Origin: Acidobacteriota bacterium | Lineage (GTDB): Bacteria; Acidobacteriota; Vicinamibacteria; Vicinamibacterales; SCN-69-37 | NCBI GenBank assembly: GCA_016716905.1 | Contig: JADJUS010000003.1 | Coordinates: forward strand, 723,710 to 787,709 | Direction of reading: 5' to 3' | Length of the DNA: 64,000 bases | Shown: positions 2,241 through 26,244 of the stretch, one piece after another | Layout: each line of letters begins with the position of its first letter | Position numbering within the stretch: position 1 is the stretch's first letter | Translations under genes and position numbers: made by a program | Notes under the pieces: generated by a model | What the model was told of the DNA's origin: nothing | The model's database searches: none | What the model saw: the letters and a program-made list of their open reading frames with translations, nothing else

Positions 2241-5021
2241 ATGGCGAAGAAGACGAGCAAGACCAGCAAGACAAGCAAGACAAGCAAGAAGAAGACGACC
2301 ACGGTGGCCAAGACGAAGAAGTTTGTCTACCTGTTTGGCACAAAGACCGACGGCAATGGGTCGATGAAGCCGCTCCTGGGCGGCAAGGGCGCGAACCTGG
2401 CCGAGATGTGCCGCATCGGGCTGCCGGTGCCGCCAGGACTGACGATTACCACGGACGTCTGCACCTACTACTACGCCAACAAGCGCACGTATCCGCCGGC
2501 CCTGCGCGCGCAGATCGAGGCGGGCGTGTCCGCGCTCGAGAAGCAGACCGGCAAGAAGTTTGGTGACCTCAAGAACCCGCTGCTGGTGTCGGTGCGCTCG
2601 GGTGCGCGCGACTCGATGCCGGGCATGATGGACACCATCCTCAACCTGGGCCTCAACGCCAAGACGGTGGAGGCCCTCGCTGTGAAGACCGGCAACGCCC
2701 GCTTTGCGTGGGATTGCTATCGCCGCTTCGTGCAGATGTACGGAGACGTTGTGCTGGGCGTCCAGAAGCGTCCGGACGAGGATCACGACCCGTTCGAGAC
2801 GGTCATCCACACCCTCAAGCACGAGCGGTATCACGCCGATATCGACGACACGAAGTTGACCGTGGACGACCTGAAGGAACTGGTGGTGCGCTTCAAGGCG
2901 CTCGTCAAGACGCGTGTCCGACGCCACTTCCCCGATGCCCCCTGGGATCAGCTGATGGGCGCCGTCGGCGCCGTGTTCGGCTCCTGGATGAACGACCGCG
3001 CCATCGTCTATCGGCGCAAGTACCACATTCCCACCGAGTGGGGCACGGCGGTCAACGTGCAGGCCATGGTGTACGGCAACACGGGCGACCGGTCGGGATC
3101 CGGCGTCGCGTTTACGCGCAACCCGGCCAACGGGACCAAGGAGTTCTACGGTGAATTCCTCATCAATGCGCAGGGTGAAGACGTGGTGGCCGGCGTACGG
3201 ACGCCGGAGCCGGTGTCGGATTTGAAGAAGGTCATGCCCAAGGCGTACGCGGCGCTCGACCGCATCCGCGCCACCCTGGAGAAACACTTCAAGGACGTGC
3301 AGGACTTCGAGTTCACGATTGAAGACGACGTCGTGTATATGCTGCAGACGCGCAACGGCAAGCGGACGGCGATGGCCGCGCTCAAGTTCTCGATCGACAT
3401 GGAGAAGGAGGGGCTGATCGACTGGAAGACGGCGATCATGCGCAACCCCGCAGATCAGCTTGAGCAGTTGCTGGCGCCCGTGTTTGACGCGTCGGAAGTG
3501 AAGACCGCAAAGGTGATTGCCACCGGCCTGCCGGCCGGCCCAGGCGCGGCATCGGGCCGTATCTATCTGAACGCCGAACGGGCCGTGGACGCGGCCGCGC
3601 GCGGAGAGAAGGTGCTGCTCGTGCGCGTGGAAACGTCGCCGGAAGATCTGCGCGGCATGATTGCGGCTGAAGGCATCCTGACGGCTCGTGGCGGTGTGTC
3701 GTCACACGCGGCACTGGTGGCCCGGCAGATGGGCAAGGTGTGCGTGTGTGGCGCCGCGGCCATCCAGGTGGACTATCAGGCGCGCACCGCGCTGGTGGAT
3801 GGGCGGACGTTCACCGAGGGCGAATGGCTGTCGATCGACGGCACCGCGGGCACGGTGTATGCGGATGCGGTGAAGACCGCGCCGTCCGAGATCGTGGCCG
3901 GCCTCCTCTATGGAGACAAGGCGGCGCAACGCACCGAGAAGTTCAAGAACTTCCAGCAGCTCATGAAGTGGTGTGACAAGGCCACCCGCATGAGTGTGCG
4001 CACCAACGCCGATACGCCGGAGCAGACCGAAAACGCCGTGGCGTTTGGCGCCGTCGGTATCGGGCTCACCCGGACGGAGCACATGTTCTTCGAAGGGGAC
4101 CGCATCGACGCGATGCGCGAAATGATCCTTGCCGAGACGGCCGATGAGCGGAAGGCCGCGCTGGGCAAGTTGCTGCCGTATCAGCGGGAGGACTTTGCCG
4201 GTATCTTCCGCGCGCTCAAGGGCTACCCGGCCACCATCCGGTTCCTCGATCCGCCGCTGCACGAGTTCCTGCCGCACAGCAAGGAATCGCAGGAGGAATT
4301 GGCCCAGAAGATGGGTGTGCCCGTGGCGCGCCTCCACCAGCGTGTGGAGGGCCTGCACGAGTTCAACCCGATGCTGGGCTTCCGCGGATGCCGCCTCGGC
4401 ATCGGGTATCCCGAGATTTCCGAAATGCAGGCGCGCGCGGTCTTCGAAGCCGCCGCGCAGGTGCAGAAGGAAGGCATCAAGGTTCGGCCCGAGATCATGA
4501 TCCCGCTGGTCGGCTTCAAGCGGGAGCTCGACCTGCAGATTGAGGTCGTCCATAAGGCGGCCAAGGCGGTGCAGGCCGAGAAGAAGGTGAAACTCAACTA
4601 CCTGGTCGGCACGATGATCGAGATCCCGCGCGGGGCGCTGACCGCCGACGAGATCGCCACGTCAGCCGAGTTCTTCAGCTTCGGCACCAACGACCTGACG
4701 CAGACCGCGCTCGGGATGTCGCGTGACGACTCGGGTTCGTTCCTGCCCAACTACCAGGAACTGGAGATCGTCACGAAGAACCCGTTTGCCACCATCGACG
4801 CGGCGGGCGTGGGCCAGCTCGTCGAGATCGCGGTCAAGAAGGGACGCGCGACCCGGCCGGACCTCAAGCTCGGTATCTGCGGTGAGCACGGCGGCGACCC
4901 GGCGTCGATCTTCTTCTTTGAGTCAGTCGGGCTCGACTACGTCAGCTGCTCGCCCTTCCGTGTGCCGGTGGCGCGTCTGGCGGCGGCCCAGGCGGCGTTA
5001 AAGCAGAAGGGGAGCAACTAA
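2241..5021 (+). CDS. ppdK: Pyruvate, phosphate dikinase
   Basis: [27 protein letters not shown], phospho-His motif [23 protein letters not shown]; 926 aa. Confidence 0.97.
2250..2285 (+). repeat. In-frame 9-bp tandem repeat x4 encoding (Lys-Thr-Ser)4
   Basis: aagacgagc aagaccagc aagacaagc aagacaagc read directly. Confidence 0.9.
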
Positions 5022-5029
5022 GAGCTTTC

Positions 5030-5319
5030 CACCATGAAGGACATGAAGATCCATGAAGGCGCCGGTTTGGGAGCCAGGCTTCGCCTGGCTGCGCGATCGG
5101 AGGGAACGCATGAATGAACAACGCCATTGTGGAAAGCGACCTCAGAGGTCTTACCTGAGCTGCGAGAGGACCTCTGAGGTCGTTTTCAGAAGGTGTTGTT
5201 CATTCATGCGTTCCCTCCGATCGTGCCTGCCGCCGGAGGCGGCGCCCAAACCGGTGATCGTCCCGGGGCTTCACGCGACCATCCTGGGGCTTCATGGATC
5301 TTCATGGATCTTCATGGTG
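5030..5319. repeat. ~290-bp nested inverted-repeat (cruciform) element between ppdK and corA
   Basis: Arms pair 5030-5058/5290-5319, 5060-5071/5245-5256, 5091-5125/5192-5226 and 5132-5150/5169-5187, with side hairpins at 5072-5090 and 5229-5243. Confidence 0.9.
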
Positions 5320-5337
5320 AATACCCGGTAGATACCG

Positions 5338-6303
5338 ATGATCACAGTTCTCGTGCACCGGGAAGGGCAGACGCGCCAGGTCGACGCGGTCGATCTGGCG
5401 TGGCTCGCTCCCGGGGCATCCGAGAAGCTGTGGGTCGACATCGAGCTGCCGGACGACGGTGCCAAGGATCTGCTGCAGCAGACATTCAAGTTGCACGAAC
5501 TCTCGCTTGAGGACGCGCTCAGTGAGATCCATCATCCGAAGATCGAGCTCTTCGATCACTACCTCTATCTGATCCTCCACGGCATCCTGCCGGGCGCCGG
5601 CGGGCGCGGGTTTGAGACGAACGACATCGATTTTTTTCTGGGCGATCGGTTCCTGGTGACCGTGCACCACGCGCCGTCTCGATCGATCAGCCAGGAACAG
5701 CAGTTGTGCCTGCGAAATACCTACGTGCTCGGAGAGGGGCCGGCCGGCCTCCTGCATCGCATCATCGACGCGATGGTCGATCACTACCGCCCTGAAGTGG
5801 ACGCGCTGGAAGACCGGTTGGAGGCGCTCGAAGACCGCGTGTTCGAGAACCCGCGCGAGAATCCCGTGCGCGACATCCTGACGCTCAAGCGCGATGTGTC
5901 GTCGTTGCGGCGCGTGGCGTTGCCCCAGCGTGATGCCATCGGCCGGCTGGCCCGCAGGGAGTTTGAACTCATTCCCGACGCGATGGCCTATCGCTTCCGC
6001 GACGTGTACGACCATCTCGTGCAGCTCACGGACGAAGCGATCTTCTTCCAGGATCGCGTGACGGGCCTGCTCGACGCCTACCTCTCGAGCCAGTCGAATC
6101 GGCTCAACCAGGTCATGAAGGTGTTGACCGTCATGTCCACCATCTTCCTGCCGCTCACGGTGCTCACGGGCCTGTACGGCATGAACGTCGTGATTCCCCA
6201 TCTGCCCGGGCCTGACTGGGCGCAGTTCTGGTGGATCGTCGGCATGGCCGGCGTGATCGTTGCCTCGATGCTGGCGGCCTTCCGTTGGAAGGACTGGCTG
6301 TGA
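5338..6303 (+). CDS. corA: CorA-family Mg2+/Co2+ transporter
   Basis: HPKIE, YGMN signature, two C-terminal TM helices, LNQVMKVLT. Confidence 0.93.
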   Translation: MITVLVHREGQTRQVDAVDLAWLAPGASEKLWVDIELPDDGAKDLLQQTFKLHELSLEDALSEIHHPKIELFDHYLYLILHGILPGAGGRGFETNDIDFFLGDRFLVTVHHAPSRSISQEQQLCLRNTYVLGEGPAGLLHRIIDAMVDHYRPEVDALEDRLEALEDRVFENPRENPVRDILTLKRDVSSLRRVALPQRDAIGRLARREFELIPDAMAYRFRDVYDHLVQLTDEAIFFQDRVTGLLDAYLSSQSNRLNQVMKVLTVMSTIFLPLTVLTGLYGMNVVIPHLPGPDWAQFWWIVGMAGVIVASMLAAFRWKDWL

Positions 6304-26173: not shown

Positions 26174-26177
26174 ACCG

Positions 26178-26236
26178 AAATGACCTCTGAGGTAATTACC
26201 GGTCACTGCCGACGGTAATTACCTCAGAGGTCGTTT
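26178..26236. repeat. 24-bp-stem hairpin between convergent genes; each arm carries ACCTCWGAGGT and GGTAATTACC palindromes; probable bidirectional terminator or REP-like element
   Basis: 26178-26201 pairs with 26213-26236 (one G-U); shares ACCTCWGAGGTCGTTTT with 5170-5186. Confidence 0.85.
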
Positions 26237-26244
26237 TGATTGTC

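What the first reader, a model, noticed from the sequence alone, without database searches (positions are those of the whole stretch)
5030..5319. 290-nt cruciform element with strand-biased G-U pairing between ppdK and corA
Four nested stems (about 29, 12, 35 and 19 bp) and two side hairpins make a multi-way junction. All four point mismatches I traced in the inner three stems (5061/5255, 5093/5224, 5123/5194, 5136/5183) are G-T on the + strand and none is A-C, which suggests selection for a single-stranded (RNA or ssDNA) fold. It looks like a Russian-doll stack of different repeat families: an outer CATGAAG[G/A] 9-mer family and an inner GACCTCWGAGGTC family also present at 26.2 kb. It could be a structured ncRNA, an RNase III-type processing site regulating corA, or nested non-autonomous mobile elements.
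Basis: seen in the sequence. Interest (0 to 1): 0.65.

Follow-up and report, generated by a model that had tools for sequence, protein, structure and literature searches.

The report
Nested selfish hairpin repeats, ppdK–corA
The 290-base "cruciform" is two mobile DNA repeats nested one inside the other, inserted at the stop codon of ppdK; the outer one belongs to a little-known, cross-phylum family whose heptamer-array ends also bracket a tiny nuclease gene, so it is selfish DNA and not a dedicated regulatory RNA.

Summary

It is not a single-copy structured RNA. It is one of about 45 copies in this Vicinamibacterales-like genome of a 200-295-nt gene-less element. Each copy has TTCAC-(CATGAAG-NNC)x3 inverted ends, a 13-bp stem, two side hairpins and a ~35-bp long stem.

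The apex carries a separate REPIN (GACCTCWGAGGTC doublet, 143 doublets genome-wide). Its RAYT gene is flanked by the same repeat.

Relatives have empty ppdK-corA junctions, with stop and start overlapping or 3-26 nt apart. The closest filled relative has the outer element without the REPIN.

The CATGAAG-type arrays also bracket a 132-aa GxxExxY PD-(D/E)XK nuclease gene in this genome and in other phyla. No DDE transposase partner was found.

The G-U bias is not strand-specific across the family. Arm covariation is very strong: 97.8% of cells paired and 23 of 30 pairs with double changes.

Mobilisation by the nuclease, and RNase III processing of the transcript, are inferences.

The parts
2241..5021 (+). 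ppdK (pyruvate, phosphate dikinase); stop TAA 5019-5021
   Evidence: ORF list. TIGR01828 match, E = 0, 1270 bits.
5019..5020 (.). Left copy of the candidate TA (TAR/TARG) target-site duplication, inside the ppdK stop codon
   Evidence: Empty sites in G007, G004 and G009 read ..TAGG... The filled G001 site reads TAGG[element]TAGG. Only two independent loci show this pattern.
5021..5032 (+). Weakly conserved outer terminus AGAGCTTTCCAC (family consensus AAG-RGC-TTTCAC)
   Evidence: End logo built from 74 element ends.
5033..5058 (+). Left heptamer array: CATGAAG at 5033, 5042 and 5052
   Evidence: The family consensus is seen.
5058..5071 (+). Left arm of the outer stem (GGCGCCGGTTTGGG); pairs with 5245-5259
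   Evidence: MFE fold. Family consensus is GCGCGGGGTTGGG / CCCAACCCCGCGC.
5072..5090 (+). Side hairpin 1 (GCCAGGCTTCGCCTGGC; family type CCCGGC-N3-GCCGGG)
   Evidence: This hairpin co-occurs with hairpin 2 in 33 of 34 cases, all inside CATGAAG elements.
5091..5125 (+). Left arm of the 35-bp long stem; pairs with 5192-5226
   Evidence: Covariation across 32 copies: 97.8% of cells paired and 23 of 30 pairs with double changes.
5127..5191 (.). Nested REPIN: REP cores GACCTCAGAGGTC (5138-5150) and GACCTCTGAGGTC (5169-5181) in a 19-bp stem
   Evidence: The genome holds 303 cores in 143 doublets. The RAYT gene at G000 C4:477078-477416 is flanked by the same repeat. The orthologous G001 element lacks this REPIN.
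5192..5226 (+). Right arm of the long stem
5228..5244 (+). Side hairpin 2 (TGCCGCCGGAGGCGGCG; family type GCCGCC-N4-GGCGGC)
5245..5259 (+). Right arm of the outer stem
5256..5289 (+). Asymmetric spacer made of two degenerate ~20-nt repeats ending in GGGGCTTCA
   Evidence: Direct-repeat family D1. In other copies the spacer can lie on either side of the core.
5290..5316 (+). Right heptamer array: CTTCATG at 5290, 5300 and 5310
5317..5328 (+). Right terminus GTGAATACCCGG
5329..5330 (.). Right copy of the candidate TA(G) duplication
5338..6303 (+). corA (Mg/Co transporter)
   Evidence: TIGR00383 match, 4.6e-58, 197 bits against a cut-off of 200.75. The start MITVLVH is conserved in relatives.
26176..26238 (.). 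Separate solo REPIN of the same superfamily (GACCTCTGAGGTAATTACC variant)

Best explanation
The element is selfish DNA in two main layers.

Layer 1 is roughly 5021-5328. It is one of about 45 gene-less copies of a hairpin element. Its ends are inverted arrays of three CATGAAG heptamers spaced about one helical turn apart. Its interior is a conserved stem, two side hairpins and a long stem.

This family is the non-autonomous form of small cassettes in which the same kind of arrays bracket a ~130-aa GxxExxY PD-(D/E)XK nuclease gene. One such gene sits in this genome at G000 C22:~557681-558079, with a CATGAAG element on each side.

The copy inserted at or next to the TA of the ppdK stop codon. 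That split a ppdK-corA junction whose stop and start overlap or lie only 3-26 nt apart in relatives without the element.

Layer 2 is 5127-5191. It is a REPIN of the GACCTCWGAGGTC family, which landed later in the apex of the long stem. Its partner is the RAYT gene at G000 C4:477078.

Shown:
- repeat membership and copy number
- insertion polymorphism at this locus and at other loci
- order of nesting
- physical linkage of the arrays to GxxExxY genes in several phyla
- strong arm covariation

Inferred:
- The GxxExxY nuclease recognises the phased heptamers and mobilises the gene-less copies in trans.
- The hairpin, as single-stranded DNA or as a cruciform, is needed for that step, which would keep the arms complementary.
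- In the ppdK-corA transcript the 28-bp terminal stem is an RNase III substrate, as in heptamer-bearing 23S rRNA intervening sequences. Cleavage there would uncouple the two cistrons.
For: Family:
- 149 BLAST pieces in the own genome.
- 40-45 bounded copies, all intergenic and packed against stop or start codons.
- 64 triple arrays in G000 against 0 for the reversed-pattern control.

Insertion:
- G019 and G022 have an ATGA stop/start overlap. G004, G009, G012, G013, G007 and G017 have 3-26-nt gaps.
- G001, G002 and G018 are filled, and G005 keeps a 30-nt remnant.
- Most of 16 other G000 copies have empty orthologous sites in G001, G002, G019 or G007.

Nesting:
- The G001 orthologue lacks the REPIN.
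- The RAYT gene is flanked by the same REP, with 14-mer counts up to 232.
- 13 of 44 elements carry a REPIN at the apex.

Nuclease link:
- PF13366 / TIGR04256 ORF, E ~1e-40, lying between two CATGAAG elements.
- CATGAAG arrays bracket PF13366 genes in Gemmatimonadaceae, Wenzhouxiangella and another Acidobacteriota MAG.
- Of 8 homologue contexts, 6 have CATGAAG, CATGGAG or CACGAAG arrays or whole elements on both sides.
- Among those 6, two carry the gene inside the arrays with the core, and one is a minimal array-gene-array cassette.

Patchy spread: absent from 120 other genomes of the class, present in other phyla.

Structure constraint: 97.8% of cells paired, 23 of 30 pairs with double changes, 0/500 shuffles.

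RNase III analogy: the Coxiella IVS has a 28-bp TIR stem, tandem heptamers, and RNase III cuts in the stem (PMC4990558).
Against: - No experiment or read data were available.
- Only 2 of 192 loci fetched by the array pattern carry the nuclease gene nearby.
- Three array-bearing genomes (G002, G041, G047) show no PF13366 gene, although they are MAGs.
- The heptamer word does not track protein identity. Homologues 62-65% identical use CATGGAG, while CATGAAG partners elsewhere are 44-53% identical.
- A PD-(D/E)XK protein of this family has no shown transposition activity. Its published function is 'Unknown' (PMC3424549).
- The target duplication is clean at only two independent loci.
Confidence: 0.72

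Rival explanations
1. It is a classical MITE: a deletion derivative of a DDE-transposase insertion sequence (IS630/Tc1-like with a TA duplication, or IS5/Harbinger-like with TNA). It would be mobilised in trans by that transposase. The GxxExxY gene would then be only a passenger or a frequent neighbour.
For: - The element has terminal inverted repeats, small size, many copies and insertion polymorphism.
- Two loci show a TA / TAR(G) direct repeat.
- TAA stop codons are enriched next to elements: 33% against 18% genome-wide.
Against: - No array pair lies 0.7-5 kb apart around a transposase gene. This was checked in the own genome, 71 genome loci, 120 metagenome loci and a MAG with 202 array-pair hits.
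- There is no DDE_3 or DUF4096 gene in G000 or in most array-bearing genomes.
- Contig ends carry no arrays.
- The GxxExxY genes, in contrast, are bracketed by arrays in most cases examined.
Confidence: 0.1
2. It is an exapted regulatory RNA structure. Whatever its origin, this copy is now kept because the hairpin in the ppdK-corA transcript sets the relative expression of the two genes, through an RNase III processing site, a 3' stabiliser for ppdK, or a block to translational coupling.
For: - The + (sense) strand folds 22 kcal/mol better than the - strand, with 11 G-U pairs against 2, the largest asymmetry in the family.
- No promoter-like or terminator-like site lies inside, so read-through is likely.
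- The element is retained in G000, G001, G002 and G018.
- The IVS precedent shows RNase III cutting a comparable stem.
Against: - Congeners do without it, and two lineages have largely deleted it: G002 lost the long stem and G005 keeps only a remnant.
- The G-U asymmetry is partly inherited from the family consensus. Family-wide it does not follow gene direction.
- There are no expression data.
Confidence: 0.12
3. It is a dedicated, vertically inherited structured ncRNA or riboswitch-like leader for corA.
For: It has an extremely stable fold and sits immediately upstream of a Mg2+ transporter gene.
Against: - There is no Rfam match, even at E <= 1.
- About 45 paralogous copies lie next to unrelated genes.
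- The element is absent at this locus in most of the genus, and its triple CATGAAG end-arrays were found in none of 120 other genomes of the class.
Confidence: 0.02
4. It is an assembly fold-back artefact.
For: Perfect long palindromes can be created by assemblers, and this genome is a 22-contig assembly.
Against: - Orthologous, diverged copies sit at the same junction in independent assemblies G001, G002 and G018.
- Dozens of family copies carry individual substitutions.
- Related copies appear in independent metagenomes.
Confidence: 0.01

Closest known systems
REPINs / REP doublets with RAYT (TnpA_REP, Y1 HUH) transposases (Bertels & Rainey 2011, PMC3116915, cited from earlier notes and my own knowledge)
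   Same: The inner module is a member. It is a short palindromic REP in an inverted doublet with high copy number, and a Y1_Tnp gene is flanked by the same repeat. The outer element shares the REPIN lifestyle: intergenic, hairpin-forming, arms co-varying, and a single-copy protein partner elsewhere in the genome.
   Different: The outer element has no REP-type unit. Its ends are phased heptamer arrays. None of the four RAYT genes is flanked by CATGAAG. Its linked gene is a PD-(D/E)XK nuclease.
23S rRNA intervening sequences (e.g. the Coxiella burnetii helix-45 IVS, PMC4990558)
   Same: Both have terminal inverted repeats forming a ~28-bp stem, tandem heptamer repeats at the end, a small optional ORF, selfish patchy distribution and a large negative folding energy. 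In the IVS, RNase III cuts inside the stem.
   Different: This element lies between protein genes, not in rRNA. The ORF linked to this family is GxxExxY, not S23p. The heptamers are spaced at 9-10 nt, not contiguous. Processing was not tested here.
MITEs (non-autonomous derivatives of DDE insertion sequences, such as Correia/NEMIS elements and IS630-derived MITEs)
   Same: Both are small, non-coding and TIR-bounded, occur in many copies, show presence/absence between relatives, and lie next to or between genes. A TA-type duplication is possible here.
   Different: No cognate IS or DDE transposase was found. Almost the whole element is a palindrome with compensated arms, not only the TIRs.
Heptamer-array / GxxExxY cassettes noted by earlier agents of this scan (e1-1385744, e1-369412, e1-936684, e1-1132750); no paper found
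   Same: The architecture is the same: inverted arrays of a 7-nt word (CACGAAG, CACGAAT, CACAGAG, CATGAAG...), gene-less hairpin copies, and full copies bracketing a ~125-aa PF13366 gene across phyla.
   Different: Here the interior is unusually elaborate (stem, two hairpins, long stem). It also serves as a landing pad for REPINs.

Membership tests
REPIN/RAYT system (inner module 5127-5191) | Short palindromic REP units arranged as an inverted doublet that forms a hairpin | tested here: met
   The arms 5132-5150 / 5169-5187 are 19 nt and 95% complementary. The REP cores are located.
REPIN/RAYT system (inner module 5127-5191) | High-copy dispersed family in the same genome | tested here: met
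   The genome holds 303 cores in 143 doublets, with modal spacing 37-39 nt.
REPIN/RAYT system (inner module 5127-5191) | A Y1_Tnp (RAYT) gene flanked by the same REP | tested here: met
   PF01797 hit at C4:477078-477416. AAAACGACCTCWGAGGTCGTTTT doublets lie on both sides of it.
REPIN/RAYT system (inner module 5127-5191) | RAYT-dependent mobility | not testable with these tools
   The only evidence is indirect: the REPIN is absent from the orthologous G001 element.
Classical MITE of a DDE insertion sequence (outer element) | Terminal inverted repeats; small, non-coding and multi-copy | tested here: met
Classical MITE of a DDE insertion sequence (outer element) | Fixed-length target-site duplication | tested here: inconclusive
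   A TAGG or TAAG direct repeat is seen at two independent loci. Other loci are unclear.
Classical MITE of a DDE insertion sequence (outer element) | A cognate autonomous IS with the same TIRs that encodes a transposase | tested here: not met
   No such pair or gene was found.
Heptamer-array / GxxExxY cassette family (undescribed; outer element) | Inverted arrays of at least 3 copies of one 7-nt word at ~9-10-nt spacing at both ends | tested here: met
   Arrays at 5033-5058 and 5290-5316.
Heptamer-array / GxxExxY cassette family (undescribed; outer element) | The same word brackets a PF13366/TIGR04256 gene in the same genome | tested here: met
   The ORF at C22:557681-558079 lies between the elements at 557388-557644 and 558126-558257.
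Heptamer-array / GxxExxY cassette family (undescribed; outer element) | The same linkage in unrelated lineages | tested here: met
   Seen in G045, G046 and G050 and in loci L300 and L302-L306.
Heptamer-array / GxxExxY cassette family (undescribed; outer element) | The nuclease binds or cuts the arrays and moves the element | not testable with these tools
   The catalytic D...E-x-K motif and the GxxExxY motif are intact. The AF2 model has pLDDT 91, with only weak Cas4-like fold hits.
23S rRNA intervening sequence | Inserted in a 23S rRNA helix (25 or 45) | tested here: not met
   The element lies between ppdK and corA.
23S rRNA intervening sequence | A long terminal stem excised by RNase III | not testable with these tools
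   The stem is present. No RNA data were available.
Any Rfam RNA family | A covariance-model match | tested here: not met
   There were 0 matches at E <= 1 over window 4500-6000.

The most novel reading that the evidence does not exclude
Inverted, helically phased heptamer arrays plus a ~130-aa GxxExxY PD-(D/E)XK nuclease form a previously undescribed, cross-phylum class of minimal mobile element. The nuclease would be the only element-encoded protein, and gene-less hairpin copies such as this one would be its MITE-like parasites. The hairpin or cruciform would be the substrate, which would explain the near-perfect arm compensation. The class may be evolutionarily continuous with rRNA intervening sequences.
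Probability: 0.35. Interest if true: 0.85.

Novelty: new variant of a known kind. Interest (0 to 1): 0.58.

Why it matters
For this locus, a 300-nt selfish hairpin has been driven between two genes whose stop and start overlap or nearly abut in relatives without the element. That is likely to change how corA is expressed relative to ppdK.

More broadly, the copy is a well-resolved instance of a repeat class that spans phyla: Acidobacteriota, Desulfobacterota, Verrucomicrobiota, Gemmatimonadota and Gammaproteobacteria. The class is tied to a very large orphan protein family (PF13366, function listed as 'Unknown'), and I found no paper describing it.

If the nuclease does mobilise the arrays, that would give PF13366 a function. 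It would also add a non-DDE, non-HUH route for small-element mobility.

The locus also shows that hairpin apices act as landing pads for REPINs, which explains the Russian-doll palindromes in this genome.

Tried and rejected
- **Rfam**: no match.
- **Autonomous partner.** I looked for array pairs 0.7-5 kb apart in the own genome, 71 genome loci, 120 metagenome loci and 1 viral locus. I also inspected candidate long pairs in the Desulfobacteraceae MAG, which held only ordinary metabolic genes.
- **IS630-type DDE_3 and IS5-type DUF4096 searches**: absent from G000 and from most carriers.
- **Contig ends** as hidden IS copies: none.
- **RAYT as partner of the outer element**: four RAYT genes, each with a different repeat, none with CATGAAG.
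- **G-U bias against flanking gene direction and against replication strand by GC skew**: no consistent link.
- **TA target in stop codons**: only a mild TAA excess.
- **Heptamer word against nuclease phylogeny**: partial clustering only, not a clean code.
- **Literature searches** for the heptamer strings and for GxxExxY / PF13366: nothing on these elements.
- **Correction.** My first estimate of 51% inter-copy arm identity was a register artefact. The aligned stems have 86% mean column identity.

Full report
**Observation**

Window 5030-5319 is a near-perfect nested palindrome. The + strand folds at -215 kcal/mol (z = -22.3) and the - strand at -193.1 (z = -16). The MFE has these parts:
- a 28-bp terminal stem
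- a ~14-bp stem
- a side hairpin
- a 35-bp stem
- a 19-bp apical stem
- a second side hairpin

Two more lie in the main arms. In total there are 11 G-U pairs on + and 2 on -.

The flanking genes are ppdK (TIGR01828, E = 0) and corA (TIGR00383, 4.6e-58). There is no Rfam match at E <= 1. No promoter-like or terminator-like site lies inside.

**It is a repeat family**

The own genome is 5.25 Mb, 64.7% GC, in 22 contigs, and is Vicinamibacterales-like by the titles of related records. It holds 149 BLAST pieces of the element and 40-45 bounded copies of 200-295 nt, plus two short ones.

All copies share this layout:
- a weak terminus (AAG-RGC-)TTTCAC
- three CATGAAG heptamers at 9-10-nt spacing
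- an optional one-sided spacer
- a stem GCGCGGGGTTGGG / CCCAACCCCGCGC
- two side hairpins (CCCGGC-N3-GCCGGG and GCCGCC-N4-GGCGGC)
- a ~35-bp stem
- an apex that is either a short loop or another small palindrome

All copies are intergenic and packed within a few to ~45 nt of stop or start codons.

**The inner layer is a REPIN**

The genome has four Y1_Tnp genes. The one at C4:477078-477416 is flanked on both sides by AAAACGACCTCWGAGGTCGTTTT doublets. That family has 303 cores in 143 doublets. Twelve doublets lie at the apex of CATGAAG elements, and 13 of 44 elements carry one. The window's copy at 26176-26238 is a solo variant.

**Insertion history at ppdK-corA**

| Genome(s) | State of the junction |
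|---|---|
| G019, G022 (a different genus) | ATGA stop/start overlap |
| G004, G009, G012, G013, G007, G017 | 3-26-nt gaps |
| G001 (flanks 89-93% identical) | Same element, no REPIN, distal long stem different on both arms |
| G002 | Element with the long stem deleted |
| G005 | Only CCATGAAGGGCCATGTAGGGCTGTGGTGAA remains |
| G018 | Degenerate copy |
| G008, G006 | Other palindromes at the same site |

Empty sites read ..TAGG.., and the filled G001 site reads TAGG[element]TAGG. A second locus gives TAAG[element]TAAG against an empty TAAG. Other loci are unclear, so the duplication (TA, TAR or TARG) is provisional.

Of 16 other G000 copies, most have empty orthologous sites in G001, G002, G019 or G007.

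**Who moves the outer element?**

No array pair encloses a transposase anywhere I looked. DDE_3 and DUF4096 are absent from G000 and from most carriers. Contig ends carry no arrays. No RAYT gene is flanked by CATGAAG.

The triple array occurs with unrelated interiors of 35-370 nt in these MAGs:
- Desulfobacteraceae, with 202 array-pair hits in 2.6 Mb
- Spartobacteria
- Verrucomicrobiota, including one at 32% GC
- Gemmatimonadaceae
- Solibacteraceae
- Wenzhouxiangella

The reversed-pattern control gave 0 hits in all these genomes. In contrast, 0 of 120 other genomes of the class (66 genera) have the triple array.

Earlier notes of this scan suggested that such arrays bracket GxxExxY genes, and I tested that here. 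G000 has two PF13366 genes. One is a 132-aa ORF at C22:~557681-558079 (PF13366 5e-40, TIGR04256 1e-40). It lies exactly between two CATGAAG elements. The other, at C14, is followed by CCTCCGTG arrays.

CATGAAG arrays also bracket PF13366 genes in G046, G045 and G050. Other PF13366 genes carry other words, such as ACAGGAT, CACGAAT, CGCAGAT, GCAGAGG, CACAGAG and CACAGAT.

I examined eight contexts of homologues 53-72% identical to the G000 protein. Six have CATGAAG, CATGGAG or CACGAAG arrays or whole elements on both sides:
- In L305 the order is array-core-gene-array.
- In L303 the order is array-gene-core-array.
- L306 is a bare array-gene-array cassette between carA and carB.

The protein keeps the D...E-x-K and GxxExxY motifs. 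It models confidently (pLDDT 91). It has no close solved relative; the best fold hit is Cas4 SSO0001 at TMq 0.46-0.50. The literature I could search lists PF13366 as 'Unknown' with 'multiple transfers' (PMC3424549).

Caveats:
- Only 2 of 192 array loci have the gene nearby.
- Three carrier MAGs show no PF13366 gene.
- The heptamer word does not map simply onto protein identity.

**Structure constraint and the G-U question**

On 32 copies of the long stem, 97.8% of 960 cells pair. 23 of 30 pairs show changes on both sides. 0 of 500 shuffles reach this, and slid controls pair at 32-45%.

Of 58 arm mismatches, 54 are transition type. 33 are wobble on one strand and 21 on the other, and they concentrate at GC[G/A]CGATC and GAAC[G/A]CAG. 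The asymmetry does not follow gene direction or GC-skew strand. The pair 5093/5224 is the family consensus.

So hairpin formation matters for the family, either through selection or through arm homogenisation at the DNA level. The claim that this copy's + strand bias is selected is not established.

**Likely effect on the host**

With no internal promoter or terminator, the element should be transcribed with ppdK and corA. Its terminal stem resembles that of the Coxiella 23S IVS (28-bp TIR stem, tandem heptamers), which RNase III cuts (PMC4990558).

**Verdict**

The element is a REPIN nested in a gene-less heptamer-array element linked to GxxExxY nucleases. The instance itself is ordinary selfish DNA. 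The class appears undescribed, and its mobilisation mechanism is inferred.

Noticed in passing
G000 contig C20 (38,361 nt; outside the window): This contig is 25.4% GC in a 64.7% GC assembly. It is probably a contaminant or a foreign replicon.
   Followed up: no
G000 C4:477078, C22:599925, C4:1261993, C22:918778: There are four Y1_Tnp (RAYT-like) genes, each flanked by its own repeat family. Examples are CGCCGGGTCTGAAGACCCGGCCTCCGAAGAG (14-mer count up to 97) and CTCGGGCTGTTCCTCAAGCCCGAG (up to 61).
   Followed up: partly
G000 C4:1532120-1532788; C4:91065-91679; C4:1058029-1058780: PF05635 '23S rRNA IVS protein' genes are bracketed by inverted tandem arrays of 7-9-nt units (GGTGCTG/GAGCACC, GTCCAGA, ACTGGCGGA).
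   Followed up: partly
G000 genome-wide; window 5127-5191: Hairpin apices act as landing pads. 13 of 44 CATGAAG elements carry an ACCTCWGAGG REPIN at the apex, and 5 of 44 carry a GACGTCGGG-type palindrome there.
   Followed up: partly
G000 CATGAAG family (table): The core (the order of the two side hairpins) occurs in both orientations relative to the side that carries the spacer, in 15 against 10 copies. So the core flips inside the ends, or was inserted both ways.
   Followed up: partly
ppdK-corA junction in relatives (L253, L254, L257, L251, L248): The junction is an insertion hot spot. G008 has a 270-nt element with the same hairpin pair but CACAACGAGG-type ends. G006 has an unrelated 80-nt palindrome. 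G018 has a degenerate copy, G005 a 30-nt remnant, and G002 a copy that lost the long stem.
   Followed up: partly
G000 C14:120680-121024 and C4:1702637-1702740: There is a second GxxExxY gene with CACGGAG/CCTCCGTG arrays. One core element elsewhere has ends built from CGGAGGA-type words. These look like sister families with other heptamers.
   Followed up: no
Long stem of the family (columns 2/63 and 29/36 of alignment A2): Two stem positions are polymorphic wobble hot spots (G-U, A-U, G-C or mismatch) in CpG-like contexts. This could reflect deamination hot spots or strand-discriminating mismatches.
   Followed up: no
L306 (GCA_037025105.1, JBAIID010000018.1:203925-205908): A minimal cassette, (CACGAAG)x4 - GxxExxY gene - (CTTCGTG)x4, lies between carA and carB in another genome.
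   Followed up: no
window 26176-26238: A solo REPIN variant (GACCTCTGAGGTAATTACCGG...CCGGTAATTACCTCAGAGGTC) follows a TAG directly. The same variant occupies the apex of several CATGAAG elements elsewhere.
   Followed up: partly
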